DNA from: an uncultured Ectothiorhodospiraceae bacterium
GTDB lineage: Bacteria > Pseudomonadota > Gammaproteobacteria > GCA-002705445 > GCA-002716945
Direction of reading: 5' to 3'
Assembly (NCBI GenBank): GCA_964342155.1
Contig: CAYFEQ010000005.1
Location: 24,889-88,888 of the forward strand
DNA: 64,000 bases
Shown: positions 1,367-35,270 of the stretch, in pieces
How positions within the stretch are numbered: the first letter of the stretch is position 1
How the letters are laid out: the number at the start of each line of letters is the position of its first letter
Made by a program: the position numbers and the translations under genes
The notes under the pieces: model-generated
Database searches by the model: none
What the model saw: the letters and a program-made list of their open reading frames with translations, nothing else
What the model was told of the DNA's origin: nothing

Positions 1367-2131
1367 ATGAAATTCCTAGAACTTCTAATAAAAATTAAAG
1401 ATATAAATAAAAAGGAAATTACATCTATATTCTCAACAGATGCGTTTTTTAGATATATATCATTTTATATAACTCCAATATTTTATTATTTAAGATTTTC
1501 ACCAAACTTAATCACATTAATTTCTTTAATGACTGGAGTCTATGGATCATTGCTGATAATAAGTTACGGGCAAGAATATTTACAAATTGGGATAATTTTA
1601 TACTTTTTATCAATCATAATTGATTATTGTGACGGAAACATAGCTAGAATTTTAAATATTCCTACTTTTTATGGTAGGTTTTTAGATGGATTTATCGATA
1701 CCATAGTCCTAGGTTCATTGCAGATTGCGTTGATAATAGTCTTAATGAATGCTGATCAAAACCACATCAATATCCTAGGCTTAAGTTTTGATAATAGTTT
1801 GATTTTTATTATATTACTTATTAGTCTATTCAGTACACCAATACAACATTTTATTTATGATCGTTATTCTTCATATATTAGATGGATAAAAGAAGAGCAT
1901 AATAAGAAATTATCACCAACAATAAAAACTGAAATTTCATTTACGTTCATCAATCTATTAAATGATTTGCAAATATTATTTATTATATTATGTGCTTTTT
2001 CGAATATATTTATATTTATTTATTTTTTAATTAACTTATTTTCAACATTATTAATAGTTAGCTACCATATGTATTTTTCTAAAAAAAATATGAATTTTTT
2101 TGCAGAAACACATCGTATTAAAAATGAATAA
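1367..2131 (+). CDS. CDP-alcohol phosphatidyltransferase family integral membrane protein
   Basis: The signature D-G-x2-A-R-x8-G-x3-D-x3-D is present as DYCDGNIAR-ILNIPTFY-GRFLDGFID. The protein is multi-helical and hydrophobic. Its 3' end overlaps the start of the next gene. Confidence 0.7.
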   Translation: MKFLELLIKIKDINKKEITSIFSTDAFFRYISFYITPIFYYLRFSPNLITLISLMTGVYGSLLIISYGQEYLQIGIILYFLSIIIDYCDGNIARILNIPTFYGRFLDGFIDTIVLGSLQIALIIVLMNADQNHINILGLSFDNSLIFIILLISLFSTPIQHFIYDRYSSYIRWIKEEHNKKLSPTIKTEISFTFINLLNDLQILFIILCAFSNIFIFIYFLINLFSTLLIVSYHMYFSKKNMNFFAETHRIKNE

Positions 2132-4913
2132 AAAAATTTCCTACACTTTTGTTATTGCTGATTTATTTCACTATGGTCACTTAAGAGTGCTTGAACAGGC
2201 GAAGAAATTTGGGAATTATCATATATGTGCAATTCTTTCAGATGATATTTGTGCACAGTGGCATGGACAAAATTTATGTAGTTTAAATGAAAGAAGCAAA
2301 GTCATAGAGGCATGTAGTTTTGTAGATGAAGTAATGGTTCAAAATTCAATAGATCCAACAGAAAACTTAAGAAAGATTCTTAAAAAATATAATGATTGTG
2401 AGATAACTGTATTTCATGGTGATGATTGGAATGTATTGCCTGGCAAATTATTTATGGAAAATAATAATATAGGTACTAAATTAATTAAATATTATAAGCG
2501 TCTATCAAGAACATCAATTTATCATCACTTTTCAAAAAAATCTAATAGCTCAAATAGCAACATTAGTGATTATAAACTTAATAATATTGTTAATTTATTT
2601 GAAACAAAAGCACAAACATTAGAAACACTTAATAAACTTTTAAATAAATCACTTATAGAGCCACTATACACATTTAAAGTTAAAGACTTTTTTAAATCAA
2701 AATCTAAGATTATCAAACAAATACAGACAAAGTTCTCTAAAAAAATTATTGTAAGAAGTTCTACAAGCAAAGAAGATGGATTAAACAGATCATGTGCTGG
2801 TGAATTCTTAACTGTTCAAAATATTGATGCTTTTTCAGAGAAATCAATTTCGAATGCAATCAATAAAGTTATTGCTGCTTATAAAGAGAGGATGGATAGC
2901 CATAGTGACGAAGAAATATTGATACAAGAACAGTCTGAGGGGATTATTTTGAGTGGAGTAGTTTTTACAAAAGGTTTACAAACAAACTCTCCATATTATG
3001 TAATTACTTACGATGATCAGTCTGGTAAAACAGATACAGTTACAAGTGGACAATCAAGTAGCACCATATGGCTGCACAGAGACACAAAAAAATACAAATG
3101 CCCAACAAAATGGAAAAATCTTATTGAGTCAATTAATGAAATAGAGAATATTTTTAAATCAATGGTGTTAGATATTGAATTTGCAATAAGAAAAAATGGT
3201 AAAGTTATAATTTATCAAGTTAGGCCTTTAGCTGCTAACATCAAATATATTGATTTAAATGAAGATTATATAGATGATTCAACTGAAAAAATTGTATCAG
3301 ACTATCAAATATATTCTCAGTCAGGATCAAATCTATTAAGCGATATGGCTTTTTGGAACCCATCGGAATTAATTGGAGAAAACCCAAAACCAATGTCTTA
3401 CTCAATATTTGAAGACATTTTAATGAAAAAACATTGGAATATTGGTTTAACTGAAATTGGATATAGTGAAGTAAATAAGAATTTAATATATAAAATTGGA
3501 AATAAACCATATATTAATGTTGATTATTCAATAAAAGCATTACTCCCAAGCTCTCTTCCAGAAAATATAAGAAAAAAACTGGAAAAATATTATAAAAATA
3601 AGTTTGTTAAGAATTTACATAATCATGATAAATTTGAATTTGAAGTCATACATTCATCGCATTTATTTGAATCAGAACTTGCTGATTTGATGCCCAAAAT
3701 ACTAAAGAAAAAAGAATATACAATATATAAGCAGTTGCTTAAAAGAATGACCATAAAGATTATAAAAAATTATCCAAAGAAAGAAAATCAATTTATAAAT
3801 GATGTTAAGAAATGTCTGAAGAAGTCAGTTAATGAAAATACAAACAATCATCTTTCAATAATCAATAATATTTTCCATAATATTAATTTGTTGAAGCAAT
3901 ATGCAACTTCACAATTCTCAACAGCTGCTAGAATGGCATTCATTAGCAAATCTATATTAAATAGCTTATTAAAAGAAAACTATTTAAAGGAAGAAGAAAT
4001 TAGTCTCTTTTACCAATCACTTAATACGGTGGCGGCTCAGTATAAAAATGATTTTAAAAGATTAAGTTTAGATAAATTTAAAAATAAATTTGGGCATTTA
4101 AGATCAGGGACATATAGTTTAACTTCAACCAAGTTAGAAGATAGGGAATTAAAGAAAACTTCTATTAATGTTAATAAAAAAGATAAATTTAATAAAAACA
4201 AATTTATTAATATTTTAGATGAAGTTCTTAAGAAAAACAAACTTGAGGTTTCAAAAGATAATTTATATAACTTTCTCTCTAAATCCTTTCAATTAAGGGA
4301 ATATTTAAAATTTGAATATACAAAAGTAATTAGTTCAATACTTGATATGATGTCAAATTTATCCAATATATTAAATATACCTATCTATGAATTTGAATAC
4401 TTAACTTTGGATGTTTTAAAATCAGGGTTAAATTTTGAAACAAAAACAGAATGTTCAGATTTTTATAATACATTTATAAATAAGTCTAGAAATGAATTTA
4501 TTGGTTATAAAAAACTTATCCAAAATCAAGTTATATGCGATAAGAATGATTTTTATATAATAGAACATAAGATTGCTAAACCAAACTATATAACTAGTAA
4601 ATCTATTGAAGGAAATGTATTGCTTCTTGATAATTCAAAATTCAAGGCATCAACATTAAATAACAAAATTATTATGATAGAGAGCGCAGACCCAGGATAC
4701 GACTGGATATTTACTCATAATATTAAAGGGCTAATTACAAAATTTGGTGGCGTTGGTTCTCATATGGCAATAAGATGCGCTGAATTTAATTTACCTGCAG
4801 CTATTGGATGTGGAAATGCAATATTTAATAATCTATTAAATAGCAAAAGGATCAAATTAGATTGTAATAATAACCAGATAATTAACCTAACAAGTAATGA
4901 AGTATTTAATTAG
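2100..4913 (+). CDS. Fusion protein of 937 aa. The N-terminus is an HxGH cytidylyltransferase-like domain (TagD / RfaE domain-II type). It is followed by a PEP-synthase-like ATP-grasp plus phosphohistidine (PEP-utilizing enzyme mobile) domain. It is a candidate Cj1418-like amide kinase.
   Basis: Residues 10-70 read FVIADLFHYGHLRVLEQAKKFGNYHICAILSDD, with a HIGH-type FHYGH motif. The middle, IVRSSTSKEDGLNRSCAGEFLTVQNI, resembles the PEP synthase and PPDK N-terminal VRSSATAEDLP..SFAGQ motif. The C-terminus, GGVGSHMAIRCAEFNLPAAIGCGNA, resembles the PEP-utilizing phosphohistidine loop GGxxSHAAIxAREL.IPAVVG. Confidence 0.7.
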   Translation: MQKHIVLKMNKKISYTFVIADLFHYGHLRVLEQAKKFGNYHICAILSDDICAQWHGQNLCSLNERSKVIEACSFVDEVMVQNSIDPTENLRKILKKYNDCEITVFHGDDWNVLPGKLFMENNNIGTKLIKYYKRLSRTSIYHHFSKKSNSSNSNISDYKLNNIVNLFETKAQTLETLNKLLNKSLIEPLYTFKVKDFFKSKSKIIKQIQTKFSKKIIVRSSTSKEDGLNRSCAGEFLTVQNIDAFSEKSISNAINKVIAAYKERMDSHSDEEILIQEQSEGIILSGVVFTKGLQTNSPYYVITYDDQSGKTDTVTSGQSSSTIWLHRDTKKYKCPTKWKNLIESINEIENIFKSMVLDIEFAIRKNGKVIIYQVRPLAANIKYIDLNEDYIDDSTEKIVSDYQIYSQSGSNLLSDMAFWNPSELIGENPKPMSYSIFEDILMKKHWNIGLTEIGYSEVNKNLIYKIGNKPYINVDYSIKALLPSSLPENIRKKLEKYYKNKFVKNLHNHDKFEFEVIHSSHLFESELADLMPKILKKKEYTIYKQLLKRMTIKIIKNYPKKENQFINDVKKCLKKSVNENTNNHLSIINNIFHNINLLKQYATSQFSTAARMAFISKSILNSLLKENYLKEEEISLFYQSLNTVAAQYKNDFKRLSLDKFKNKFGHLRSGTYSLTSTKLEDRELKKTSINVNKKDKFNKNKFINILDEVLKKNKLEVSKDNLYNFLSKSFQLREYLKFEYTKVISSILDMMSNLSNILNIPIYEFEYLTLDVLKSGLNFETKTECSDFYNTFINKSRNEFIGYKKLIQNQVICDKNDFYIIEHKIAKPNYITSKSIEGNVLLLDNSKFKASTLNNKIIMIESADPGYDWIFTHNIKGLITKFGGVGSHMAIRCAEFNLPAAIGCGNAIFNNLLNSKRIKLDCNNNQIINLTSNEVFN

Positions 4914-5571
4914 TCAATCACATATAAAAAATAATGATGAGATCTATGATGATTTAGATATTAAGTATCAGAACTATTTTTCTAATTATAATATTGATTT
5001 AATACCTATAAAAAATTCTAAAAATATCAAACAATCAAATATTGAAAAGTATCTTGATAGGGCTGATTCATTTGATGGAATCATATTGTCTGGCTCTGGA
5101 GATATCGACTTAACTCAATATAATTTACCTGACAACAAATCTACAAAATTTTCTGAGGATAGAGATTTAATAGAATCTAAATTGATAGATTTAGCCTTAT
5201 CTGAAACTAAGCCAATAATAGGAATATGTCATGGTATGCAAAAAATAAATCAATATTTCAATGGAAAGATACATCCTTATTATCACTGCAGGAAGGAAAC
5301 TTATAGTGAGCAAGGTATAGAACATCAAATAATAGGAACGGATGAATTAATCGGCTTGAAAAGTAAATACAAAGTGAATCAATATCATGATCATTGTATT
5401 CTAGAGGATGATTTATCTAATGACTTAAAATGTTTTGCATTAGACCCAAGATTTCAAACAGTAGAAGGATTTTATAATCAGAAAATGAATATTGTTGGCA
5501 TGCAATGGCATCCTGAAAGAAAAATATCTGATAAAAACATTACATCAAAAATTCTAAATCAATTCATATGA
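4897..5571 (+). CDS. Class I glutamine amidotransferase / gamma-glutamyl hydrolase-like (C26 peptidase family). It is a candidate Cj1417-like gamma-glutamyl-CDP-amidate hydrolase.
   Basis: It has the catalytic Cys motif IIGICHGMQ and a C-terminal MQWHPE His/Glu motif, at 224 aa. Its start overlaps the stop of the upstream fusion gene. Confidence 0.65.
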   Translation: MKYLISQSHIKNNDEIYDDLDIKYQNYFSNYNIDLIPIKNSKNIKQSNIEKYLDRADSFDGIILSGSGDIDLTQYNLPDNKSTKFSEDRDLIESKLIDLALSETKPIIGICHGMQKINQYFNGKIHPYYHCRKETYSEQGIEHQIIGTDELIGLKSKYKVNQYHDHCILEDDLSNDLKCFALDPRFQTVEGFYNQKMNIVGMQWHPERKISDKNITSKILNQFI

Positions 5572-6344
5572 AAGCAATTATTCTTGCGGCAGGCAAAGGA
5601 ACTAGATTAGGTAAAATAACTGAGAATCAACCTAAATGTTTATTAAAAATAGGTAAAACAAATATCTTAGATATTCAAACTAAACAGTTTATCGATAATA
5701 ATATACATGATATTTATGTTGTATCAGGACATTGCTCAAATCAAATTAAATCACAACAGATAAAAAACATAACTAATAAAGAATATAATACGACAAATAT
5801 GGTTTATTCATTAGTGCAGGCACGTCAATATTTAGATGATGACGTAATTATTTCATATGGAGATATAATTTTTCATGATTCAATATTGAAGGGTCTAATT
5901 TCAAATCAAAATAAAAATTTAGTAGTTTCAGATAAAAATTGGAGACAATACTGGGTAGAACGATATAATAGTTATGAAGTTGATATAGAATCATTCAAAA
6001 TAAAAAATGGAAAACTTATTGAAATAGGGCAAAATTGTAAATCTGCTGACAATATTGATGGAAGATATATAGGGTTGATGAAGTTTTCTCAATCAACAAT
6101 AAACAAAATCTTGGAAATATGGGATAGAGATTTTGATAGTTATACAAAAAAGTTTTGGAGAACAACAAAAAAATTTATTCAAGAGTCATTTATGACTGAT
6201 ATGTTACAAGAACTAATCAATGAAGGAGTTGATTTAGATGTTTATGAAATTAATAATCAATGGTGTGAAATTGATACAGTCAAAGATTATCAATTAGCAC
6301 AAAAATTTTATTCTAAAAATATAGATAATAATCATGGCAAATAA
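5568..6344 (+). CDS. LicC-like sugar/phospho-alcohol nucleotidyltransferase (NTP_transferase fold). It is a candidate Cj1416-like cytidylyltransferase.
   Basis: The N-terminal MKAIILAAGKGTRLG...QPKCLL matches the G-x-G-T-R-L signature of GlmU/LicC-type nucleotidyltransferases. Length is 258 aa. Its start overlaps the upstream stop. Confidence 0.7.
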   Translation: MKAIILAAGKGTRLGKITENQPKCLLKIGKTNILDIQTKQFIDNNIHDIYVVSGHCSNQIKSQQIKNITNKEYNTTNMVYSLVQARQYLDDDVIISYGDIIFHDSILKGLISNQNKNLVVSDKNWRQYWVERYNSYEVDIESFKIKNGKLIEIGQNCKSADNIDGRYIGLMKFSQSTINKILEIWDRDFDSYTKKFWRTTKKFIQESFMTDMLQELINEGVDLDVYEINNQWCEIDTVKDYQLAQKFYSKNIDNNHGK

Positions 6345-7878
6345 TATATCATCAAAAACAGTATCACCTGTAAAAGGATTGAAAGAGTCTTTTGCTAAAC
6401 AAAGAATTGCTTTTACAAATCGCGCATCAGCAGTATTTCCAGTTTATTTAAGAAATAAAACTGACCTGCATATAGTATTTTTAAACTATTGGACTATAAA
6501 GAATAATATACCAGCTAACGGTCTATCAATTAATATAAAAATCTATGATGACTTAGGAAATCTACTAATTGTTCATGTTTTAGAAGAGATTGAAGATCAT
6601 AATCAAATTTCTATTAGAGCTATATTAAATGATAAAAAGGAATTAGATTTAGATAAACTAGATGGTACTGCTCATATTGAAATAATATCTACACATAATC
6701 TTAGATTCTCATTTCCAGCCATCATTGGAATCTATCAAGCTGAAAACCTTTTTAGTGCTGTACATTCAGCAGGCAGAGTTAAAAATAGCGATGAACTACA
6801 AAAAATATCGTATACTGAAGAAACTAATTGGATTTGCAAGAATAATGAACAAACAACTCCTTTCTTTCATTTTTTTAATGGACCTCAATTACCAACGAAA
6901 AAAAATATATTAGTTAATTTACATAAATCTTCTGATAATAATTTAATCTCTACTAAAGAAATTGATATAAGCAACATACCTGAATTAGGGTCAAAATTTT
7001 TTACAGCAGACAATTTATTTTCAAAATCAGATCTAAAAAATGAATGCTATATATCAGTAAAGGTTGAACATAATTGTATTTTTCCAAGACTTGTAGTTGG
7101 AAATTTATATAAGGAAAATAATTTTTTAGAAGCGACGCATTCATTTCCTATTATAAAGAATATCGATCATATAAAATCTGATGAAAAGCCAATTACATAT
7201 AAAGCCTTATTATGTGGATTTACTTCAAAGGAGTTATCTCTTGATATGTCAGTCTTTCCAACAAATTGTGAGGGTGAATTTCAAGCTGATTTTCTTACTC
7301 AAAAATATAATGAAGATAAAATTAAGGCCATTGGAAATTCAGAATATTTTGACAAAAAAAAGTTGAAACAAATGCAAACTTTTAAATTAGATAATCAGGA
7401 ACAGTTTCTTGAGATAGGGTTAACGGGAGAATCTGTCCCGTCTCGAATTAACGCCTCTTTTATTTATAGAGTAAAAGATAAAGCAGGCCCAGACTATACA
7501 ACTAATATTGCAAATGGTGCAGTCTCACATGTTTTTCCGCCTAGACATAGACAATGGGGACATGGCTATTTAGGAAATAACTTTGAAACAAATATTCATA
7601 TAAGAAATACAAGTCATAACCCTGACGACACAAAGGATGGTAATGGGACAATAATATTCTATGGAAAAAATATGAAAATTGTTCATAAATTTAAAATTAA
7701 AGCTGAATCATCATTAGCAATAAGCCTTTCAGACATTATTTCAAAAGATAATATAAATGCTTATGATGATAATAATTTTATTAGTTGGATGATGGAAATA
7801 GATATTCCTAATTGTGATTCTCATTGGGTATCATTTAGAAAATCAGATGGAGCCATATTTGGCGAACATAGTTTCTAA
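6334..7878 (+). CDS. Hypothetical protein of 514 aa, soluble, with no recognisable motif
   Basis: It is a long uninterrupted ORF in the operon frame, overlapping its upstream neighbour by 11 nt. I see no TM segments or signal peptide. I cannot match it to any family from sequence alone. Confidence 0.5.
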   Translation: MANNISSKTVSPVKGLKESFAKQRIAFTNRASAVFPVYLRNKTDLHIVFLNYWTIKNNIPANGLSINIKIYDDLGNLLIVHVLEEIEDHNQISIRAILNDKKELDLDKLDGTAHIEIISTHNLRFSFPAIIGIYQAENLFSAVHSAGRVKNSDELQKISYTEETNWICKNNEQTTPFFHFFNGPQLPTKKNILVNLHKSSDNNLISTKEIDISNIPELGSKFFTADNLFSKSDLKNECYISVKVEHNCIFPRLVVGNLYKENNFLEATHSFPIIKNIDHIKSDEKPITYKALLCGFTSKELSLDMSVFPTNCEGEFQADFLTQKYNEDKIKAIGNSEYFDKKKLKQMQTFKLDNQEQFLEIGLTGESVPSRINASFIYRVKDKAGPDYTTNIANGAVSHVFPPRHRQWGHGYLGNNFETNIHIRNTSHNPDDTKDGNGTIIFYGKNMKIVHKFKIKAESSLAISLSDIISKDNINAYDDNNFISWMMEIDIPNCDSHWVSFRKSDGAIFGEHSF

Positions 7879-7923: not shown

Positions 7924-8847
7924 ATGGCATCAGACAATATTAGAAAAGAAGAAATTAAAAGATGGTGGGATAGCCCAAGAAATCTTAGGTGGGACAAATT
8001 TTATGAGACAAATGATTTAAACTCATACATGATCTCAAAGAGATTAGATAAGACTTTAGATATTTTAGATTCAATTAATAAATCAGAATTGAATATTATA
8101 GAATTAGGTTGTGGAGCAGGCCAGTCATCAGAAAAAATACTTAAAAGAGGTCATAAATATATTGGACTTGATATATCGCAACAATTAATAAAATGTGCTA
8201 AAGAAAGATGTGGAAAATACATTAAATCTAAAAATGCTAATTTTTATGCTCAAAGTGTTGATGAAAGATTACCAATAAAACCTAAAACACAAGACGTGGT
8301 CATAATCATTGGTATGCTCCAATATGTTGATGATATAGATTTTTGTTTTGATGAAATAAAACGAATTTTGAAGGATGATGGTCATATACTAATTTGTCAA
8401 ACCAACATGTATCACATACATGATTTTTTCTTACCTAGATCGCTATTGGTAAAACTCTCATATCTTTTTTTGCAAGAGAAATATGAAATATCAAATTCAA
8501 TAAAATCAATCTTGCTAGAGACTAAATTAAATAGAGTTTTTAGATTTAATAAAAATTCATCATTTATGAATTCAAATTTTGCAACGAAGGGCTATATAGA
8601 TAGAAAATATGATTTCAGAAAAAGATTAATATCATTGACAAGACTAACAAAAATTCTTAAGAAGTATAATTTTAATGTAATCACAAAGTCTGGGGCACCT
8701 TTTTTTTACACAGAAAATAGTTTTTTTAAACCAGTATTTAAATTATTAGACTTTGTATCAAATATTTTTTTAAAAGTACCACTTTTATCAGCTATTAAAT
8801 ATTTAGCTAATAATGTGATAATTTTAGGCAAAAATGAAAAAATTTAA
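7924..8847 (+). CDS. Class I SAM-dependent methyltransferase
   Basis: Motif I reads IIELGCGAGQSS, followed by an acidic residue at the end of beta-2 (YIGLDIS) and motif post-I/II (VVIIIGMLQYV). Length is 307 aa. Confidence 0.65.
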   Translation: MASDNIRKEEIKRWWDSPRNLRWDKFYETNDLNSYMISKRLDKTLDILDSINKSELNIIELGCGAGQSSEKILKRGHKYIGLDISQQLIKCAKERCGKYIKSKNANFYAQSVDERLPIKPKTQDVVIIIGMLQYVDDIDFCFDEIKRILKDDGHILICQTNMYHIHDFFLPRSLLVKLSYLFLQEKYEISNSIKSILLETKLNRVFRFNKNSSFMNSNFATKGYIDRKYDFRKRLISLTRLTKILKKYNFNVITKSGAPFFYTENSFFKPVFKLLDFVSNIFLKVPLLSAIKYLANNVIILGKNEKI

Positions 8848-10126
8848 AACTATTTATATAGCTGCGATCAATAGAAGTGGAGGTTCATTATTAGCTAGAC
8901 TCTTAGATAATCATAGCAAAGTTCTAAGTTATCCGATTGAAATTGGATTTCCAACTTTTGATAATTTTTATGAAGTTCATGAAATGCATCAAGGAGTGCC
9001 TCAAACAATCCCTAATTATTCAAAATCAATGAATATTGATGTATTTAACTTATTGGAGATTCCAAAAGAAGAGCATCAATATTCTACAACTTGGGGAAAA
9101 GAAACAAGTGATCCATTAGGAGTGAGAAAGAATTATATAGAAAAAGTATTTTATGGAAATATAAAAACTGATTTTGATTATGCAAAGTTCAAAAAAACAT
9201 TTGAAGAAGAATCAAATAATGCATCAAATATTGCTGAATTATATGATGCAAGACACAATGCTTATTTTAAATCCTGGGATAATGGAAAATATTTTAAAGA
9301 ACAATCTCATGTATTGATGCATGATAGTGGCGGCTTGTATTTAACCAATATAGATAAATTCTATGATGAATTTTCTGATTCAAAGTTAATATACCCTATA
9401 CGAAATGTAATTGGTTATGTTGCAGCTGAGAAAACAAGATTTGCAAGACGTTATTATGGTTCTAGAAGATTTGCATGGCCTCAATTACCAAACTTTTTTG
9501 TTAAAAGATTTGTTCATTATGACTTAGAAGCACAAATTCGTTGCTGGCTATCTGCATTAACGAGAGTGAGAATACTTCAAGAAAAATATGAGAAAAATAA
9601 ACTTATTGTCTATAGACATGAAAATTTAATACATAGACCTAAAGATGTAATGAAATCAATTAGTAGTCTACTCGATCTTAAATATGAGAATACATTAATA
9701 GAGCCGACAATTGCTGGAACTCCATGGTTAGGAAACTCTCATTACGGACCTGTAAAGGGTATTTCAAAAAGTATAAGTAAGAACTACAGCAAGGTATTAA
9801 GAGATGATGAAATTGAGATAATTTCTGAGACAACAAAAAAGTTAACTAAATCATTATATACCGAGGATAATATAACAGATATTTTATCAATCAATGAAAA
9901 CTTATTCTATAGATACTCAGAACAAAAAAAATATTTCAATGATGAAGAAAAATTAACCTTATATTATACTACTGTAAATTCTCCAAAGAGAAGAGTTTTG
10001 GTAAAGCAACCTGACATTTATTCTATTTTTGCTTTTTTTTATTCAATCTTTGTAAGAATTTTACATATACCAAGAATAATTAAACTTAAATTTTTTAAGG
10101 GAAAGGGGAAACAAAATTATACATGA
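8834..10126 (+). CDS. Sulfotransferase-like protein (stf0 / Sulfotransfer_3-like P-loop)
   Basis: The N-terminal IAAINRSGGSLLARLL resembles the 5'-PSB loop (RSGsTLL) of bacterial sulfotransferases. A possible 3'-PB-like IYPIRNVIGYV segment follows. Length is 430 aa. It overlaps both neighbours, indicating an operon. Confidence 0.45.
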   Translation: MKKFKTIYIAAINRSGGSLLARLLDNHSKVLSYPIEIGFPTFDNFYEVHEMHQGVPQTIPNYSKSMNIDVFNLLEIPKEEHQYSTTWGKETSDPLGVRKNYIEKVFYGNIKTDFDYAKFKKTFEEESNNASNIAELYDARHNAYFKSWDNGKYFKEQSHVLMHDSGGLYLTNIDKFYDEFSDSKLIYPIRNVIGYVAAEKTRFARRYYGSRRFAWPQLPNFFVKRFVHYDLEAQIRCWLSALTRVRILQEKYEKNKLIVYRHENLIHRPKDVMKSISSLLDLKYENTLIEPTIAGTPWLGNSHYGPVKGISKSISKNYSKVLRDDEIEIISETTKKLTKSLYTEDNITDILSINENLFYRYSEQKKYFNDEEKLTLYYTTVNSPKRRVLVKQPDIYSIFAFFYSIFVRILHIPRIIKLKFFKGKGKQNYT

Positions 10127-11097
10127 CAGAGATATTTGCAACCGTAGGTCCATCAACATTAAATAAAAAATTTCTTACTGCAATAAATAAGAGAAAAGTA
10201 AATTTATTAAGAATTAACTTATCTCATACAAAAATTAAAGATTTAGAAAGTACTGTAAACTTTATTAAACGATATACAAAAATACCCGTATGCTTTGATA
10301 CAGAAGGAGCACAAATAAGAACAACATCGATATTTAAAAATAAAATGATTTTGAAAACCAATACATCTGTATTCATCCATAAGAACAAACAAAGTAAGAA
10401 AAGTTTTAGTTTAACGCCTATAGAGGCATTCGACCTCATCAATGAAGGGGATATACTATCAATTGATTTTGATAGCGTTCAGATAAAAATTATTGAGAAA
10501 AAGAATTTATCATTAAAAGCGACTGTTATTAATGGAGGCAGTATTGCAATTAATAAAGGGGTATCAGTGAATAGACAAATTAAATTAGCTTCATTCACTA
10601 AAAAAGATATTCAAGCATTTAAAATTGCAAAGGATCTTAAAATTAAAAATATTGCTTTATCATTTGCATCAACTGGTCAGGATGTGAAAAGACTACGCGA
10701 GATATTCAAATATCCCATAAACATAATATCAAAAATTGAATCTAAAAGAGGTTTGAAAAATTTAAAGAATATAATAAGTGAATCAAATGGAATATTAATT
10801 GATAGAGGAGATCTTTCAAGAGAAGTTCCGTTAGAAAACATCCCTCAAACACAAAAAAATATTATAAATGTAGCAAAAAAAATGAAAAAATCAGTATATG
10901 TAGCAACTAATCTACTCGAGTCAATGGTTATTAAAAAAGATCCAACAAGAGCTGAAGTTAATGATATTTATAATACATTAATTGATGGAGCAAATGGATT
11001 AGTTCTTGCTGCTGAAACTGCCATTGGCAATTATCCATTAGAGTGTATAAATATGATTTCTAAAGTTGCCAAAGTATATAAAAAGAATCATAAATAA
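10123..11097 (+). CDS. Pyruvate-kinase-like protein with the PK TIM-barrel domain only and no C-terminal regulatory domain
   Basis: IFATVGPSTLNKKFLTAINKRKVNLLRINLSHT matches the pyruvate kinase N-terminus (IVCTIGPAS...G.nvaRlNfSHG). At 324 aa it is about 150 aa shorter than canonical PykF. Confidence 0.55.
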   Translation: MTEIFATVGPSTLNKKFLTAINKRKVNLLRINLSHTKIKDLESTVNFIKRYTKIPVCFDTEGAQIRTTSIFKNKMILKTNTSVFIHKNKQSKKSFSLTPIEAFDLINEGDILSIDFDSVQIKIIEKKNLSLKATVINGGSIAINKGVSVNRQIKLASFTKKDIQAFKIAKDLKIKNIALSFASTGQDVKRLREIFKYPINIISKIESKRGLKNLKNIISESNGILIDRGDLSREVPLENIPQTQKNIINVAKKMKKSVYVATNLLESMVIKKDPTRAEVNDIYNTLIDGANGLVLAAETAIGNYPLECINMISKVAKVYKKNHK

Positions 11098-11108
11098 TTA
11101 ATTTAGAA

Positions 11109-11636
11109 ATGTCACAAATAATTTGGTTTACAGGAATGTCAGGAGCTGGTAAATCTACGATTCTTGAATATGCAAACAAATATGTTCAAAGTAAAAAAAT
11201 GAATACAGCTTGTATTGATGGAGATCAAATTAGGAACAAGTATAAAATTCCAGTTGGATTTTCTTATGATGAAATCTGTATGAATAATAGATCAGTTGCA
11301 TCACTATGTAAGTCAATTTCAGAAAAGCATGATTTTATTTTTGTAGCTGTTATTTCTCCGTATGAAAAATTAAGAGAAGAAATTAAATCATTACTAAATA
11401 ATAATATTCATTTTGTATATGTATATGCTGATATAGATGTATTAAAAAAGCGCGATGTTAAAGGTTTATATAAAAAAGCTGATAATGGAGTAATAGATAA
11501 TCTAATTGGATATTCAAAAAACTCGCCATATGAAAAACCAACTAATCCTTCCTTGAAGATCAACACTTCAATAAAAAGTTTAGATGAATGTAAGGAACAA
11601 ATAAAAATATTTATTGATTCGTTATTAAACCAATAA
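11109..11636 (+). CDS. Adenylylsulfate (APS) kinase family protein (CysC fold). It is a candidate Cj1415-like cytidine diphosphoramidate kinase or a PAPS-forming kinase.
   Basis: The Walker A reads IIWFTGMSGAGKSTI, typical of APS kinase (vwfTGLSGSGKST). The 175-aa length is that of a stand-alone CysC. Confidence 0.75.
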   Translation: MSQIIWFTGMSGAGKSTILEYANKYVQSKKMNTACIDGDQIRNKYKIPVGFSYDEICMNNRSVASLCKSISEKHDFIFVAVISPYEKLREEIKSLLNNNIHFVYVYADIDVLKKRDVKGLYKKADNGVIDNLIGYSKNSPYEKPTNPSLKINTSIKSLDECKEQIKIFIDSLLNQ

Positions 11637-31411: not shown

Positions 31412-32602
31412 ATGAAATATAAAATTCCTTTTGCTAAGATTGAAACTAGCCTTAAAGAATTTGAATATGTTGAGAATGTTCTCAAGTCTGGGTGGTTGAC
31501 AACAGGTAGTGTAGCAAAAGAATTTGAGGATAACTTCTGCAAATTTACTGGAGCTAAACACGCTTTAGCAGTTAGTTCCTGTACAGCTGCTTTACATCTT
31601 GCATTGAATGCTATATCAATAAAAAAAGGTGACAAGGTTATCGTGCCTTCATTAACTTTTACATCTTCAGCTGAAGTTATTACTTATTTTCAAGCTGATC
31701 CTATATTTGTCGATATTGATTATGATACATGCTTAATAACTCCTGAAATCATACAGAAGGCAATTGATAAGCATGGTGATATTAAAGCAGTGATTACAGT
31801 TCATTTTGCAGGTCATCCAGCAATGATGACGAGTGATAATCAAAAGGGGATACTTGATATTTGTAAAGAAAATAACATAACCGTAATAGAAGATGCTGCT
31901 CACGCATTCCCATCAAAACTAAATAACACATATGTCGGTAACTTTGGAAAGATTACATGTTTTAGTTTTTATGCAAATAAAACTATCACAACAGGAGAAG
32001 GAGGGATGATTGTCTGCGATGATGAAAAATTAATTGAAAAGATTAAAATTATGAGATTGCACGGAATAGATAAAGATCCATGGAAAAGGCAAAACTCAGT
32101 TGGGCCAAAATGGAAATATGATGTGGTTATACCAGGTTTCAAATATAATATGCCTGATATTAATGCAGCTATTGGCCTTGCTCAATTAGAAAAAGCAGAA
32201 AAAATGAGATTAGAGAGACAGAGATGTGCTGAATATTATGCTAAACATTTATCAGAAATTGAATGCATTGAAATACCAAAGTTAAAAGTTAGTTTTTCTG
32301 ATCATTCATGGCATTTATATTTAATAGTTGTTAATGATAAATCAAATGTCTCAAGAGATGAATTGATGGACCTATTAGAGACAGATGGCATATCTACATC
32401 TTTGCACTATATACCACTTCATCAAATGACTTACTATAAAGATACATATAATTTAGATAATCAGGATTTTCCAAATACAGAAAGATACTTCAAGGGCTGT
32501 TTGTCATTACCAATATATCCATCACTAAAAAATGAAGAACTTGAATATATAGTTAAATCTATAAAAAACATTGTGTTACAAAATAATACAAACAAACCTT
32601 AA
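31412..32602 (+). CDS. DegT/DnrJ/EryC1/StrS-family PLP-dependent sugar aminotransferase
   Basis: It is full length at 396 aa, with SGWLTTGS, SSCTAALHLAL, KGDKVIVPSLTF, EDAAHAF and the PLP-lysine region FSFYANKTITTGEGG. Confidence 0.85.
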   Translation: MKYKIPFAKIETSLKEFEYVENVLKSGWLTTGSVAKEFEDNFCKFTGAKHALAVSSCTAALHLALNAISIKKGDKVIVPSLTFTSSAEVITYFQADPIFVDIDYDTCLITPEIIQKAIDKHGDIKAVITVHFAGHPAMMTSDNQKGILDICKENNITVIEDAAHAFPSKLNNTYVGNFGKITCFSFYANKTITTGEGGMIVCDDEKLIEKIKIMRLHGIDKDPWKRQNSVGPKWKYDVVIPGFKYNMPDINAAIGLAQLEKAEKMRLERQRCAEYYAKHLSEIECIEIPKLKVSFSDHSWHLYLIVVNDKSNVSRDELMDLLETDGISTSLHYIPLHQMTYYKDTYNLDNQDFPNTERYFKGCLSLPIYPSLKNEELEYIVKSIKNIVLQNNTNKP

Positions 32603-32623
32603 ATTAATTAATTACTAATTTAA

Positions 32624-33313
32624 ATGGATATTAATAATTCATTTTACGAAGCATCTAATCTAATTATTTCACTAGATTCAAGTTTAATTGAAATAATATC
32701 TTTATCATTATTTGTTTCATTATCAGCAGTTATTATTGCATGTATAATTTCATTTCCAATCGGAAGCTTTCTTGCTATGAAAAAATTTTATGGAAGAGAG
32801 ATTATTATTATAATAGTAAATGCTTTTATGGGTTTACCGCCTGTTGTAGTAGGTTTATTTTTATATCTTATATTCTCATCTGCAGGCATATTTGGTTATT
32901 ATCAATTGTTATACTCCCCAACAATTATGATTATTGCTCAGATTATTATAGTAACGCCAATTATTATTGGATTAACAAAACAAATTATTGAGGATTTATT
33001 TTTTGAATATAGCGATCTACTACTATCTCTTAAGGCAACGATGATACAAAAAATTCAAACCTTAATCTGGGATGCGAGATTTTCTTTACTTACAGTGGCT
33101 TTAGCTGGACTCGGTAGAGCATTAGCAGAAGTAGGGGCGGTAATTATTGTAGGTGGTAACATTGCTCATGTCTCAAGAGTAATGACCACTACAATTGCTA
33201 TGGAGACTTCAAAAGGTGATTTATCTCTTGCGTTAGGATTAGGAATCATTTTAATTTCTATATCCATTTTAATCAATGGAACATTATATTTACTTAGAAA
33301 GTTTCAGTACTGA
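32624..33313 (+). CDS. tupB: ABC transporter permease, TupB-like (tungstate/oxyanion family)
   Basis: ALAEVGAVIIVGGNIAHVSRVMTTTIAMETSKGDLSLALGLGIIL closely parallels the TupB core (EVGA..mVGGNI.g.TRv.TtAIalEtskGd...A). It has 5 to 6 TM helices. Confidence 0.65.
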   Translation: MDINNSFYEASNLIISLDSSLIEIISLSLFVSLSAVIIACIISFPIGSFLAMKKFYGREIIIIIVNAFMGLPPVVVGLFLYLIFSSAGIFGYYQLLYSPTIMIIAQIIIVTPIIIGLTKQIIEDLFFEYSDLLLSLKATMIQKIQTLIWDARFSLLTVALAGLGRALAEVGAVIIVGGNIAHVSRVMTTTIAMETSKGDLSLALGLGIILISISILINGTLYLLRKFQY

Positions 33314-34835: not shown

Positions 34836-34912
34836 TTTGATATTATAATTAGACATAATATATATTATGCGAATATAGATGTATATTTCATCACTACTAC
34901 CTATTCTAATAA

Positions 34913-35269: not shown

Positions 35270-35270
35270 T

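What the first reader, a model, noticed from the sequence alone, without database searches (positions are those of the whole stretch)
1367..4913. Unusual fusion of a HIGH-motif cytidylyltransferase with a PEP-synthase-like kinase, translationally coupled to a CDP-alcohol phosphotransferase
The 937-aa ORF starts with a TagD/RfaE-type HxGH cytidylyltransferase domain (FHYGH) of about 130 aa. This domain is fused in frame to the PEP-synthase-like ATP-grasp and phosphohistidine domains. I know of no described single-polypeptide enzyme with this architecture. Its start overlaps the end of a CDP-alcohol phosphatidyltransferase-family membrane protein (1367-2131).

One attractive reading is a single polypeptide that phosphorylates a substrate and then converts it to a CDP-linked intermediate. 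The upstream membrane enzyme would consume that intermediate by transferring a phospho-alcohol or phospho-amide head group onto a lipid-linked glycan.

The separate LicC-like nucleotidyltransferase (5568-6344) makes two candidate cytidylyltransferases. This raises the question of which one makes which CDP-intermediate.
Basis: partly seen in the sequence, partly recalled or inferred. Interest (0 to 1): 0.7.

Follow-up and report, generated by a model that had tools for sequence, protein, structure and literature searches.

The report
Cytidylyltransferase-glutamine kinase fusion, phosphoramidate pathway
The long gene is a real and very widespread, but apparently unstudied, fusion of a cytidylyltransferase-type domain to the glutamine kinase that starts the Campylobacter-type phosphoramidate sugar-decoration pathway, which puts that supposedly rare pathway in marine bacteria, gut bacteria and archaea and leaves the job of its second cytidylyltransferase open.

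Summary
A 929-aa ORF (ATG 2124 to 4913) joins a TagD/Fom1-like HxGH cytidylyltransferase (CT) domain, through a disordered 20-residue linker, to a PEP-synthase/rifampin-phosphotransferase-like kinase. Its start overlaps the stop of a CDP-alcohol phosphotransferase gene by 8 nt.

It is not an assembly artefact. The same 929-aa protein recurs in independent marine assemblies, and hundreds of homologues across bacterial and archaeal phyla share the architecture.

The kinase part scores as the Cj1418-type L-glutamine kinase. The next two genes are the Cj1417-like amidohydrolase and the Cj1416-like cytidylyltransferase. The locus is therefore a phosphoramidate (P-N) glycan-decoration module inside an O-antigen-like cluster.

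Across 163 related loci the fused N-domain never replaces the free Cj1416-like enzyme. It co-occurs with CMP-releasing phosphotransferases (LicD, TagF-like, CDP-alcohol type) in 20/34 fused loci against 5/59 unfused loci.

In this clade the N-domain keeps HxGH but has lost TagD's acceptor lysines and has a remodelled second motif. I favour an active second cytidylyltransferase that feeds those phosphotransferases (about 0.45). A regulatory nucleotide-binding domain is the main rival (about 0.3).

I found no paper describing the architecture. I rate it a new variant of a known kind.

The parts
1367..2131 (+). CDP-alcohol phosphotransferase-family membrane protein (254 aa). It is the candidate CMP-releasing transferase that consumes a CDP-linked donor.
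   Evidence: PF01066, 43.1 bits against a cut-off of 22. All specific NCBIfam equivalogs (PIP synthase, PgsA, PssA and others) score far below their cut-offs. The motif DYCDGNIARx8GRFLDGFID is intact at aa 85-110. Hydrophobic segments are present. The stop overlaps the next gene's ATG by 8 nt.
2124..2534 (+). N-terminal HIGH-signature cytidylyltransferase-like domain (aa 1-137) of the fused protein. HYGH lies at nt 2169-2180, the W46-H-G48 site at 2259-2267 and YYKRLSR at 2490-2510.
   Evidence: PF01467 and TIGR00125 score above their cut-offs, while the TagD equivalog TIGR01518 gives 46 bits against a cut-off of 165. By sequence, the PDB relatives are ECT 3elb, TagD 1coz and the Fom1 CyTase 5x3d. 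By fold, they are TarD 2b7l (TM 0.84), TagD (0.83) and Fom1 (0.79). Residues G18, H19, D40, E56, R57, Q73, P78 and N81 are invariant in 85 homologues. The domain is well folded in the model.
2535..2594 (+). Low-complexity flexible linker (aa 138-157, KKSNSSNSNISDYKLNNIVN).
   Evidence: pLDDT is below 50 for residues 138-157. Length and sequence vary among homologues.
2595..4913 (+). L-glutamine-kinase-type module (aa 158-929). It comprises a PPDK_N ATP-grasp domain, a helical substrate domain and a C-terminal phosphohistidine swivel domain (aa about 805-925). The catalytic His880 lies at nt 4761-4763.
   Evidence: NCBIfam NF004508 covers aa 156-922 at E 2e-201, 671 bits against a cut-off of 501. 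Pfam finds PPDK_N and PEP-utilizers. H880 in GGxxSHMAIRC is invariant. The best fold match is rifampin phosphotransferase 5hv1, E 1e-19. JGI names several homologues 'glutamine kinase'.
4897..5571 (+). Class-I glutamine amidotransferase / Peptidase_C26 protein, Cj1417-like (gamma-glutamyl-CDP-amidate hydrolase type).
   Evidence: Pfam finds Peptidase_C26 and GATase. The best NCBIfam hit is NF045546 gamma-glutamyl-CDP-amidate hydrolase, but at 83.5 bits against a cut-off of 250. The gene follows the kinase in 30/33 fused and 56/59 canonical loci. It overlaps the kinase gene by 17 nt.
5568..6344 (+). LicC/PntC-like nucleotidyltransferase, Cj1416-like (phosphoglutamine cytidylyltransferase type).
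   Evidence: Pfam finds NTP_transf_3 and NTP_transferase. The best PDB relatives are T. denticola PntC 6pd1 and LicC 1jyk. The GxGTR signature is kept here (AAGKGTRL) and in 28/31 family members of fused loci by a strict pattern, none of the three exceptions being a clear loss. The gene is present in all complete fused loci. It overlaps the neighbouring genes by 4 nt and 11 nt.
6334..7878 (+). 514-aa protein with no family assignment. It is in the same overlapping gene chain but is probably not specific to the module.
   Evidence: No Pfam or NCBIfam hit. It has 74 homologues, none with a Pfam domain apart from one spurious 7%-coverage hit. Homologues in Roseateles and Pelagibacteraceae sit in glycan clusters that lack any glutamine kinase.
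7924..8847 (+). SAM-dependent methyltransferase. It could be an O-methylase for a MeOPN-like group (inference only).
   Evidence: Several methyltransferase Pfam families hit. An orthologue lies in the related locus L016.
8834..11636 (+). Three genes: a sulfotransferase-like protein (8834-10126), a pyruvate-kinase barrel-only protein (10123-11097) and an APS-kinase family protein (11109-11636). They form either a sulfation arm or a Cj1415-like 3'-kinase route.
   Evidence: Pfam finds Sulfotransfer_3 and PK. TIGR00455 apsK gives 148.8 bits against a cut-off of 138.7. The same trio occurs in L016. The sulfotransferase-like family also sits inside unfused modules L072 and L085. A PK barrel is fused to ATP sulfurylase in L087 and L165.

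Best explanation
**What it is**

Gene 2124-4913 encodes a natural two-part enzyme of a phosphoramidate (P-N) glycan-decoration pathway.

**The core pathway (kinase identification shown by homology; chemistry inferred from the C. jejuni enzymes)**
1. The C-terminal 770 residues are an L-glutamine kinase of the Cj1418 type. It takes up phosphate from ATP on His880 and phosphorylates the amide N of glutamine.
2. The Cj1416-like nucleotidyltransferase (5568-6344) adds CMP to that product, giving CDP-L-glutamine.
3. The Cj1417-like amidohydrolase (4897-5571) removes glutamate, giving cytidine diphosphoramidate.

**The N-terminal domain (inferred from co-occurrence)**
- The 137 N-terminal residues are a TagD/ECT/Fom1-type cytidylyltransferase domain on a flexible tether.
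- It is an extra, pathway-dedicated module. It is not a substitute for the Cj1416-like enzyme.
- I think it most likely remains a working cytidylyltransferase. Its CDP-linked product would be consumed by the CMP-releasing phosphotransferase that travels with this version of the pathway.
- Here that phosphotransferase is the translationally coupled CDP-alcohol phosphotransferase 1367-2131. Elsewhere it is LicD or a TagF-like enzyme.
- That enzyme would place a phosphoryl head group on the O-antigen-like glycan or its lipid carrier.

**What is not resolved**

The nucleophile of the N-domain is unknown. It could be a P-N compound of the pathway (glutamine phosphate or phosphoramidate) or an ordinary phospho-alcohol.
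For: **The fusion is real and old**
- Identical copies occur in independent assemblies.
- All 120 listed homologues (36-100% identity, 100% being the database copy of this protein) continue from the N-domain into the kinase. They include Clostridium tetani, Selenomonas, Lachnospiraceae and Elusimicrobiota.
- Genome loci carrying the fusion add Parabacteroides, Synergistales, Euryarchaeota, Woesearchaeota and Gottesmanbacteria.
- N-domain relatives fall into 238 representatives at 50% identity.
- The kinase family has 5016 members, and 63 of the best 120 hits to an unfused query are fused.

**Kinase identity**
- NF004508 scores above its cut-off.
- The phosphohistidine motif is invariant.
- The fold is that of rifampin phosphotransferase.

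**Module conservation**
- GATase and NTP transferase follow the kinase in 30/33 fused and about 56/59 canonical loci.
- The NTP transferase keeps its catalytic signature in fused loci.

**N-domain conservation**
- G18-H19, D40, E56-R57, Q73, P78 and N81 are invariant in 85 sequences. H16 is at least 90% conserved.
- The fold is that of TagD and Fom1.

**Pathway membership by fusion pattern**
- The same N-domain is fused to a second, permuted kinase architecture that is again followed by NTP transferase and GATase.
- It also occurs in APS-kinase + CT + kinase triple fusions.

**Link to CMP-releasing phosphotransferases**
- LicD, TagF-like or CDP-OH enzymes occur in 20/34 fused loci, 5/59 canonical loci and 0/66 other loci. 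Fisher p is 2.5e-7 overall, and 6e-5 with at least 3 kb of flank.
- The phosphotransferase gene abuts the module in the window, L003, L076, L121, L130, L144, L012, L013 and L123.
- At most one of the loci scanned (L004) has another intact PF01467 cytidylyltransferase to supply these enzymes; two others hold only fragments.

**Precedent**
- About 60% of PEP mutases are fused to PF01467 or PF12804 nucleotidyltransferases. Their clusters can also carry a second nucleotidyltransferase, and LicD-like transferases are found alongside (PMC6697681).
- The Fom1 CyTase domain is active.
Against: - **Active-site changes in the window's clade.** The residues that align with TagD K44/K46 (CCT K122) are W46 and G48, with no basic residue conserved nearby. 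RTxGISTT is replaced by YYKRLSR. Half of the classic catalytic set is therefore missing.
- **No obvious missing step.** The Cj1416-like and Cj1417-like enzymes should already suffice to make cytidine diphosphoramidate, so no step visibly needs a second cytidylyltransferase.
- **The phosphotransferase link is not absolute.** Five unfused loci carry TagF-like or CDP-OH enzymes, including L073 where a CDP-OH gene directly follows the NTP transferase. Fourteen fused loci show none, although many of these are short contigs.
- **Weak statistics.** The loci are phylogenetically non-independent; one gut clade contributes 18 fused loci. The p-values therefore overstate the evidence.
- **A degenerate parallel.** In L131 and L149 an NTP-transferase paralogue that has lost its GxGTR signature is fused at the same N-terminal position. 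This suggests that N-terminal nucleotidyltransferase-like domains on this kinase can be non-catalytic.
- **No direct Cj1418 comparison.** I could not retrieve the C. jejuni sequence, so the link between NF004508 and Cj1418 rests on annotation and on my own knowledge.
Confidence: 0.45

Rival explanations
1. The N-domain is a nucleotide-binding regulatory or scaffolding domain derived from a cytidylyltransferase; it no longer catalyses transfer. It would sense CTP or a CDP-linked product and gate the first committed, ATP-costly kinase step, or tether partner enzymes to the kinase.
For: - TagD's acceptor lysines are lost and the second motif is remodelled in this clade. Other clades keep YRxKP and YYxRLST.
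- The domain never replaces the free, intact NTP transferase.
- It hangs on a disordered tether at the N-terminus of the first pathway enzyme.
- L131 and L149 offer a parallel. There a Cj1416-like paralogue with a destroyed GxGTR signature is fused at the same position, next to an intact free copy.
Against: - G18-H19 are invariant and H16 is at least 90% conserved, along with D13, D40, E56-R57, D68 and GDDW. This is more than binding alone would usually need.
- It does not explain the enrichment of CMP-releasing phosphotransferases in fused loci.
- The related Fom1 CyTase domain, fused in the same way, is catalytically active (PMC6697681).
Confidence: 0.3
2. One reading: the N-domain is the cytidylyltransferase for the kinase's own product (glutamine phosphate to CDP-glutamine). 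This would make the fused protein self-sufficient and the separate LicC-like enzyme redundant, or dedicated to something else.
For: - Fusion of consecutive enzymes is common.
- The N-domain is fused to two different kinase architectures in the same context.
- Q73 and the ENLR stretch are shared with the Fom1 CyTase, which acts on a small pathway-specific phosphonate.
Against: - All 30 complete fused loci keep the Cj1416-like enzyme, with its catalytic signature.
- No lineage was seen with the N-domain but without that enzyme.
- The clade that lost the N-domain also lost the NTP transferase.
- No conserved residues are evident that could bind the amino-acid end of glutamine phosphate. This point is inference.
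Confidence: 0.12
3. The fusion is a sequencing or assembly artefact that joins a tagD-like gene to a separate kinase gene.
For: The only support is the low-complexity, AT-rich linker region (nt 2535-2594), which is the kind of sequence where indels arise.
Against: - Identical 929-aa products occur in independent assemblies from different projects.
- Hundreds of homologues down to 35% identity are continuous across the junction.
- There is no stop codon in the frame.
Confidence: 0.01

Closest known systems
Campylobacter jejuni O-methyl phosphoramidate (MeOPN) pathway: Cj1418 L-glutamine kinase, Cj1416 phosphoglutamine cytidylyltransferase, Cj1417 gamma-glutamyl-CDP-amidate hydrolase, Cj1415 cytidine diphosphoramidate 3'-kinase (Taylor and Raushel 2017-2019, as summarised in the preprint read and the review read; genetics in PMC3907429)
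   Same: - The kinase family is the same (NF004508 scores above its cut-off).
- The GATase and the LicC-like nucleotidyltransferase lie directly downstream.
- An APS-kinase-family gene and a methyltransferase are in the same cluster.
- The setting is a polysaccharide locus.
   Different: - Cj1418 is described without a cytidylyltransferase domain; the family model is 789 positions long and starts at aa 156 of this protein.
- Here a HIGH-type domain is fused in front, and a CDP-alcohol phosphotransferase is translationally coupled.
- The host is an uncultured marine Pseudomonadota bacterium.
- The GATase scores well below the Cj1417 equivalog cut-off (83.5 against 250).
Fom1 (CyTase-PEP mutase) and the wider set of PEP mutases fused to PF01467 or PF12804 nucleotidyltransferases (PMC6697681)
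   Same: - A PF01467 domain is fused N-terminally to the first committed enzyme that makes an unusual phosphorus bond.
- The clusters can also hold a second nucleotidyltransferase.
- LicD-like phosphotransferases are found alongside the phosphonate genes in such clusters.
- The N-domain resembles the Fom1 CyTase (E 2e-8, TM 0.79) and shares Q..D..ENLR and HGDDW with it.
   Different: - The partner enzyme is a PPDK-type kinase making a P-N bond, not a PEP mutase making a P-C bond.
- Fom1 keeps a lysine (YKR) where this clade has WHG.
Kennedy-type pairs of a cytidylyltransferase with a CMP-releasing phosphotransferase: TagD/TagF, LicC/LicD, IPCT/DIPPS, ECT/ethanolamine phosphotransferase
   Same: - The N-domain has the fold and the HxGH motif of TagD, ECT and CCT.
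- It co-occurs with TagF-like, LicD or CDP-alcohol phosphotransferases.
   Different: - It fails the TagD equivalog (46 bits against 165).
- The acceptor lysines and RTxGISTT are missing.
- In this sample it is always fused to a glutamine-kinase-type protein, never found as a free gene next to the transferase.
Rifampin phosphotransferase (RPH-Lm, PDB 5hv1/5fbs)
   Same: It is the closest solved structure to the kinase part. Both have an ATP-grasp domain, a helical substrate domain and a C-terminal swivelling His domain.
   Different: Sequence identity is about 14%. The substrate and the biology are different, and RPH has no N-terminal cytidylyltransferase domain.
Clostridioides difficile FtaA-D flagellin type A modification, which uses CDP-threonine and a TagF-like phosphotransferase
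   Same: The logic is the same. A phospho-amino-acid-type head group is activated as a CDP conjugate and then transferred to a glycan by a TagF-like enzyme.
   Different: - The nucleotidyltransferase is of a different family (CD0242 is modelled on GDP-mannose pyrophosphorylase), and no PPDK-type kinase is described there.
- The linkage is a phosphodiester to threonine, not a P-N bond.
- There is no fusion.

Membership tests
L-glutamine kinase (Cj1418 type; NCBIfam NF004508/PRK05849) | Whole-protein score above the curated equivalog cut-off | tested here: met
   671 bits against a cut-off of 501, E 2e-201, aa 156-922 against model positions 8-788 of 789. The model itself is named only 'hypothetical protein'. 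Its link to Cj1418 rests on my own knowledge and on JGI 'glutamine kinase' names for homologues.
L-glutamine kinase (Cj1418 type; NCBIfam NF004508/PRK05849) | PPDK_N ATP-grasp domain plus a C-terminal phosphohistidine swivel domain with the catalytic His, and no PEP/pyruvate TIM barrel | tested here: met
   Pfam finds PPDK_N and PEP-utilizers only. H880 in GGxxSHMAIRC is invariant in 85 sequences. The fold has the three-domain layout of rifampin phosphotransferase.
L-glutamine kinase (Cj1418 type; NCBIfam NF004508/PRK05849) | Operon partners: a Cj1417-like amidohydrolase and a Cj1416-like cytidylyltransferase | tested here: met
   Genes 4897-5571 and 5568-6344 overlap the kinase gene chain. 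The same pair is found in 86 of 92 fused or canonical loci.
L-glutamine kinase (Cj1418 type; NCBIfam NF004508/PRK05849) | [quoted passage not shown] | not testable with these tools
   This needs an enzyme assay (31P NMR or HPLC).
HIGH-signature cytidylyltransferases (PF01467; TagD, CCT, ECT, Fom1 CyTase) | HxGH motif, family-level profile score and Rossmann-like fold | tested here: met
   HYGH lies at aa 16-19. PF01467 gives 40.8 bits against 21 and TIGR00125 gives 35.1 against 27.7. Foldseek TM scores are 0.79-0.84 to TarD, TagD and Fom1.
HIGH-signature cytidylyltransferases (PF01467; TagD, CCT, ECT, Fom1 CyTase) | Second signature RTxGISTT/S, which binds the triphosphate | tested here: not met
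   It is replaced by YYKRLSR; the family consensus is YYx[KR][LM]S[PR] in this clade and YYxRLST in others. The site is remodelled but conserved, so it is not simply decayed.
HIGH-signature cytidylyltransferases (PF01467; TagD, CCT, ECT, Fom1 CyTase) | Lysine(s) that bind the acceptor phosphate (TagD K44/K46, CCT K122, the KG of ECT) | tested here: not met
   The aligned positions are W46 and G48, and the preceding residue is not conserved. Other N-domain clades keep YRxKP.
Glycerol-3-phosphate cytidylyltransferase TagD (TIGR01518 equivalog) | Equivalog score | tested here: not met
   46.1 bits against a cut-off of 165.4. I do not file it as TagD.
CDP-alcohol phosphotransferases (PF01066), gene 1367-2131 | Family profile, the DxxDGxxARx8Gx3Dx3D motif and a polytopic membrane protein | tested here: met
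   43.1 bits against 22. The motif is at aa 85-110. Several hydrophobic segments are present. No specific equivalog (PIP synthase, PgsA, PssA, ClsA) is reached. The fourth Asp is not kept in relatives L016, L013, L073 and L165.
Gamma-glutamyl-CDP-amidate hydrolase Cj1417 (NF045546), gene 4897-5571 | Equivalog score | tested here: not met
   This is the best-scoring NCBIfam family, but at 83.5 bits against a cut-off of 250. Position and family make a Cj1417-like role likely, but orthology is not established.
Phosphoglutamine cytidylyltransferase Cj1416, gene 5568-6344 | LicC-type NTP transferase with an intact GxGTR signature, encoded next to the kinase and the hydrolase | tested here: inconclusive
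   The fold family and the signature are present, and the position is conserved. No family-specific model appeared among the hits and no C. jejuni sequence was available for direct comparison.

The most novel reading that the evidence does not exclude
The N-domain catalyses a cytidylyl transfer that has not been described. The nucleophile would be a P-N compound: glutamine phosphate, or free phosphoramidate in an ATP-sulfurylase-like reaction. This would create a Kennedy-like route in which LicD, TagF-like or CDP-alcohol phosphotransferases install phosphoramidate-type head groups on glycans or lipids. It would define a second, widespread delivery branch of phosphoramidate biosynthesis in marine bacteria, gut anaerobes, CPR bacteria and DPANN archaea. 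That branch would be distinct from the Campylobacter route through 3'-phospho-cytidine diphosphoramidate.
Probability: 0.25. Interest if true: 0.75.

Novelty: new variant of a known kind. Interest (0 to 1): 0.55.

Why it matters
- **Distribution of the pathway.** Phosphoramidate decorations of glycans are treated as rare and essentially as a Campylobacter trait (PMC3907429). The data here show that the kinase family has thousands of members. A large share, perhaps the majority in some lineages, carries an extra cytidylyltransferase domain that nobody appears to have studied.
- **A second route for delivery.** If the domain is active, it marks a different way of delivering the P-N group, through CMP-releasing phosphotransferases. 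That gives a direct handle for finding P-N-modified surface glycans in gut commensals, Clostridium tetani flagella, marine bacteria and archaea.
- **If it is regulatory.** It would then be an example of an enzyme domain recruited to control the first committed step of its pathway.
- **A concrete, testable question.** The parallel with PEP mutase-nucleotidyltransferase fusions suggests a general design rule for pathways that build unusual phosphorus bonds. The unresolved need for two cytidylyltransferases is a question that can be tested directly.

Tried and rejected
- **Assembly artefact.** Rejected.
- **N-domain replaces the Cj1416-like enzyme.** Rejected, because that enzyme is present and intact in every complete fused locus.
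- **N-domain replaces the APS-kinase-like Cj1415 step.**
  - This was first suggested by an apparent anticorrelation: 4 of 33 fused loci have an APS kinase, against 16 of 59 canonical loci.
  - I dropped it after finding C. tetani, the window and L016 with both.
  - APS-kinase + CT + kinase triple fusions settle the point.
- **The CDP-alcohol phosphotransferase is the fixed partner of the fusion.** Rejected. It occurs in only five of the 34 fused loci surveyed (again in L165 and L168, fetched later), while LicD or TagF-like enzymes occur in most of the others.
- **The transferase gene always sits next to the N-domain-coding end.** Not upheld. It lies on either side of the module.
- **orf514 (6334-7878) is the P-N transferase.** Not supported. 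Its homologues lie in clusters without the kinase.
- **A single origin of the fusion.** A neighbour-joining tree gives a poorly resolved ladder, so the number of gains and losses is left open.
- **Literature.**
  - The primary Raushel papers and the Fom1 paper are not held in the library.
  - Full-text searches for the domain combination and for glutamine kinase found no description of the fusion.
- **Direct comparison with C. jejuni Cj1415-Cj1422.** I could not obtain the sequences. A third homologue search did not list Campylobacter among its best 120 hits.

Full report
**1. Observation**

The window has about 26-30% G+C. From 229 to about 27 kb it carries one long run of plus-strand genes that overlap or abut.

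The mechanical ORF 2100-4913 (937 aa, TTG start) contains an ATG at 2124, which gives 929 aa. This ATG lies in the sequence ATGAATAA, so it overlaps the TAA stop (2129-2131) of gene 1367-2131 by 8 nt. Every database copy was called from this ATG.

Pfam finds three domains in the protein: CTP_transf_like at the N-terminus, then PPDK_N, then PEP-utilizers. The upstream gene is a CDP-alcohol phosphotransferase-family protein. Its DxxDGxxARx8Gx3Dx3D motif is intact and it has several hydrophobic segments.

**2. Not an artefact**

- The exact 929-aa protein, with the same neighbours, occurs in a Tara Oceans assembly and in an unrelated Logan assembly.
- Its cluster at 90% identity or more has 31 members; of the 15 listed, 12 are 929 aa and the others are partial copies. 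They are annotated as coming from uncultured marine Pseudomonadota.
- All 120 listed homologues, at 36-100% identity, continue from the N-domain into the kinase: 118 are full length (917-971 aa) and two are cut short.
- An AlphaFold2 model built on 85 homologues has mean pLDDT 86.6 and pTM 0.78. It shows a folded alpha/beta N-domain (aa 1-137), a disordered linker (aa 138-157) and a confident kinase body.

**3. What the parts are**

*The kinase.* The kinase part (aa 156-922) matches the NCBIfam equivalog NF004508 at 671 bits, against a cut-off of 501. The model is unnamed. JGI names several fused homologues 'glutamine kinase'. From my own knowledge this is the family of C. jejuni Cj1418. The phosphohistidine motif GGxxSH880MAIRC is invariant. 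The closest solved fold is rifampin phosphotransferase (E 1e-19).

*The two downstream genes.* The next gene (4897-5571) is a Peptidase_C26/GATase protein. Its best NCBIfam hit is gamma-glutamyl-CDP-amidate hydrolase, although below the cut-off. The gene after it (5568-6344) is a LicC/PntC-like nucleotidyltransferase with an intact GxGTR signature.

*The rest of the cluster.* It also holds a methyltransferase, a sulfotransferase-like protein, a pyruvate-kinase barrel and an APS-kinase-family protein. Further downstream lie Wzy-like, glycosyltransferase, epimerase and AsnB-like genes.

*The match to Campylobacter.* The core genes match those of the Campylobacter MeOPN pathway. There, cj1415-cj1418 are the biosynthetic genes (PMC3907429). 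The reactions are:
1. Glutamine is converted to glutamine phosphate.
2. Glutamine phosphate is converted to CDP-L-glutamine.
3. CDP-L-glutamine is converted to cytidine diphosphoramidate.

The steps to cytidine diphosphoramidate are summarised in the preprint read and the 3'-phospho form is named in the review read; that Cj1415 makes it is from my own knowledge. The primary papers were not available.

**4. The N-domain**

*Relatives.* By sequence it is nearest to ECT (E 6.5e-15), TagD (2.8e-10), the Fom1 CyTase domain (2e-8) and CCT. By fold it is nearest to TarD and TagD (TM 0.83-0.84) and Fom1 (0.79).

*What is conserved.* G18, H19, D40, E56, R57, Q73, P78 and N81 are invariant in 85 homologues. 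H16, D13, W46, G48, D68, G99 and Y124 are at least 90% conserved. Q73 and the ENLR stretch are shared with Fom1 but not with TagD.

*What is missing.*
- The residues that align with TagD K44/K46 are W46 and G48.
- The RTxGISTT motif is replaced by YYKRLSR.
- Other clades of the same N-domain keep YRxKP and YYxRLST, so the window's clade is the derived one.
- The domain fails the TagD equivalog, at 46 bits against 165.

It is a member of the HIGH cytidylyltransferase superfamily but not of any characterised specificity group.

**5. Comparative genomics**

Two collection scans gave 163 loci with a kinase of this family. I called genes and searched them with profiles built from the window proteins and from Pfam-verified seeds.

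*Kinase architectures found*

| Architecture | Loci |
|---|---|
| Plain kinase | 90 |
| HIGH-CT fused at the N-terminus | 35, of which 2 are copies of the window locus |
| GATase fused at the C-terminus | 35 |
| Degenerate NTP-transferase paralogue fused at the N-terminus | 2 |
| APS kinase fused at the N-terminus | 1 |

*Module content.* Fused loci carry the GATase and the NTP transferase in 30 of 33 cases. The three exceptions are truncated contigs. The NTP transferase keeps its signature. The N-domain therefore never substitutes for the Cj1416-like enzyme.

*Candidate delivery enzymes.* These are the enzymes that could pass the head group on to the glycan, and they differ by class.

| Candidate enzyme | Fused loci | Canonical unfused loci | Other loci |
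|---|---|---|---|
| LicD, TagF-like or CDP-alcohol phosphotransferase | 20/34 | 5/59 | 0/66 |
| 389-aa alkaline-phosphatase-superfamily protein | 1/33 | 36/59 | not counted |
| APS-kinase gene | 4/33 | 16/59 | not counted |

For the first row, Fisher p is 2.5e-7 overall. With at least 3 kb of flank on both sides it is 14/20 against 3/26, p 6e-5. The alkaline-phosphatase-superfamily protein was identified.

In the window, L003, L076, L121, L130 and L144 the phosphotransferase gene lies directly upstream of the fused gene.

These counts are not phylogenetically independent. A rough tree shows the fused forms as a poorly resolved ladder that includes one 18-member gut clade.

**6. How widespread it is**

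- A search of 1.84 billion representatives with the N-domain alone gave 238 representatives at E<=1e-10. Most full-length ones are 920-1000 aa kinase fusions.
- A search with an unfused Leptospira kinase found 5016 family members. Of the best 120, 63 carry the N-domain. Many are from Woesearchaeota and Nanoarchaeota.
- The N-domain is also fused to a permuted kinase architecture, with PEP-utilizers before PPDK_N. That locus again has NTP transferase, GATase and a CDP-alcohol phosphotransferase.
- It also occurs in APS-kinase + CT + kinase triple fusions. Their archaeal locus contains a CDP-alcohol phosphotransferase, GATase, NTP transferase, an AP-superfamily protein and methyltransferases.

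The fusion pattern therefore places the domain inside this pathway.

**7. Interpretation**

*Well supported.* The kinase, hydrolase and LicC-like transferase form a phosphoramidate-donor module inside a surface-polysaccharide cluster. The N-domain is an ancient, conserved add-on to that module.

*Inferred.* The enrichment of CMP-releasing phosphotransferases in fused loci suggests that the N-domain is their cytidylyltransferase partner. At most one of the scanned loci (L004) has another intact PF01467 enzyme to supply them.

*Unresolved.* I could not determine the nucleophile, and both candidates raise problems.
- A pathway P-N compound fits the fusion logic and the Fom1 and PEP-mutase precedent (PMC6697681). 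It does not explain why the Cj1416-like enzyme is always kept.
- An ordinary phospho-alcohol fits the TagD/ECT kinship. It leaves most fused loci without an evident outlet for cytidine diphosphoramidate, and it conflicts with the loss of the acceptor lysines.

*Main rival.* The domain may be a non-catalytic nucleotide sensor or scaffold. The motif losses support this. So does the parallel in L131 and L149, where an NTP-transferase paralogue with a destroyed signature sits at the same position.

*Weights.*

| Reading of the N-domain | Probability |
|---|---|
| Active cytidylyltransferase feeding the phosphotransferase | about 0.45 |
| Regulatory or scaffold domain | about 0.3 |
| Simple 'cytidylylates the kinase product and replaces Cj1416' | about 0.1 |
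| Artefact | about 0.01 |

**8. Novelty**

Full-text searches for the domain combination, for glutamine kinase and for the pathway intermediates found no description of this architecture. The library lacks most subscription journals, so this is not proof of absence. Databases label the proteins 'PEP-utilizing enzyme', 'adenylyltransferase/cytidyltransferase family protein' or 'glutamine kinase'.

I rate it a new variant of a known kind. It is a known pathway and known folds in an uncharacterised but very common arrangement, with a distinct set of downstream transferases.

Noticed in passing
L015, L017, L019, L021-L024 and others (35 loci; for example L019:10025-13087): In many Lachnospiraceae, Butyrivibrio and Coprococcus loci the kinase is fused at its C-terminus to the GATase. 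These loci have no Cj1416-like nucleotidyltransferase, no N-domain and no LicD, TagF-like or CDP-OH gene nearby. This suggests a nucleotide-independent branch, perhaps direct hydrolysis of glutamine phosphate to free phosphoramidate. In a rough tree this clade nests inside the N-domain-fused lineages.
   Followed up: partly
L131:769-3882 and L149:695-3757: In these two loci the kinase carries an N-terminal Cj1416-like NTP-transferase paralogue whose GxGTR signature is destroyed, and an intact free copy lies two genes downstream. This parallels the HIGH-domain fusion, but the fused domain has a different fold and is apparently inactive.
   Followed up: partly
P0511 and P0528 (locus L168:9001-12393); L153:1656-4613: Triple fusions of APS-kinase-like domain, HIGH cytidylyltransferase domain and kinase occur (1130-1143 aa, in an archaeal locus with an S-layer gene nearby). 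A simpler APS-kinase-kinase fusion occurs in L153.
   Followed up: partly
P0261, P0267, P0268 and P0284; locus L165:121-3507: The same N-domain is fused to a permuted kinase, with the PEP-utilizer domain before PPDK_N (1128-1208 aa). In the one locus examined (L165, encoding P0268) the kinase is followed by NTP_transf_3 and GATase. Several N-domain proteins (P0261, P0266, P0284, P0286) also carry a roughly 35-residue N-terminal extension of unknown nature, with the motif KNKSNGQL.VT.PK.
   Followed up: partly
window 10123-11636; L087:8687-10966; L165:5033-7285: A pyruvate-kinase barrel without the C-terminal domain sits next to the APS kinase in the window. In L087 and L165 the same barrel is fused to PUA_2 and ATP sulfurylase. 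In L165 it lies next to a kinase-sulfotransferase fusion and a CysQ-like Inositol_P protein. This is an unusual pairing of a PK barrel with sulfate activation. It suggests that the window's APS kinase and sulfotransferase may form a true sulfation arm.
   Followed up: partly
window 8834-10126; L072:13839-15209; L085 (429-aa gene after the NTP transferase): The 430-aa sulfotransferase-like protein has very close relatives (E 1e-135 to 1e-174). In unfused modules these lie between the NTP transferase and the APS-kinase gene. Because 3'-phospho-cytidine diphosphoramidate resembles PAPS, this family could be a phosphoramidate transferase rather than a sulfotransferase. That idea was not tested.
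   Followed up: no
L150:13895-15061 and 35 other unfused loci: A 389-aa alkaline-phosphatase-superfamily protein (Sulfatase and Phosphodiest Pfam hits) lies close to the NTP transferase, usually just downstream of it. It occurs in 36/59 canonical unfused loci, mostly marine, against 1/33 fused loci. It is a candidate delivery enzyme or hydrolase for cytidine diphosphoramidate. A 715-aa Sulfatase-family gene precedes the module in C. tetani.
   Followed up: partly
window 6334-7878: This 514-aa protein has no Pfam or NCBIfam family. It has 74 homologues of about 500 aa, all unannotated, in Pelagibacteraceae, Roseateles, Myxococcales and metagenomes. In the two loci examined, they sit in polysaccharide or nonulosonic-acid clusters.
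   Followed up: partly
L083 (Clostridium tetani, GCA_004119295.1): In C. tetani the fused module (Sulfatase-family, APS kinase, fused kinase, GATase, NTP transferase) lies in a flagellin-glycosylation island with MptE/Maf-like, NeuB and flagellin genes. This hints at a phosphoramidate-type modification of flagellin glycans.
   Followed up: no
window about 32000-36000: Cumulative GC skew peaks at about 32-34 kb. Gene orientation also switches there, from all plus-strand (up to 34835) to nearly all minus-strand (from 35271). This is convergent transcription, as expected at a replication terminus. Two tRNA genes lie at 54435-54508 and 55503-55592 on the minus strand.
   Followed up: no
L016:16385-17155, L013:5938-6684, L073:13868-14680, L165:9466-10176: The CDP-alcohol phosphotransferase relatives that accompany these modules often lack the fourth Asp of the family motif; it is N, G or H instead. 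The window protein keeps all four. This may mark an atypical subfamily.
   Followed up: no
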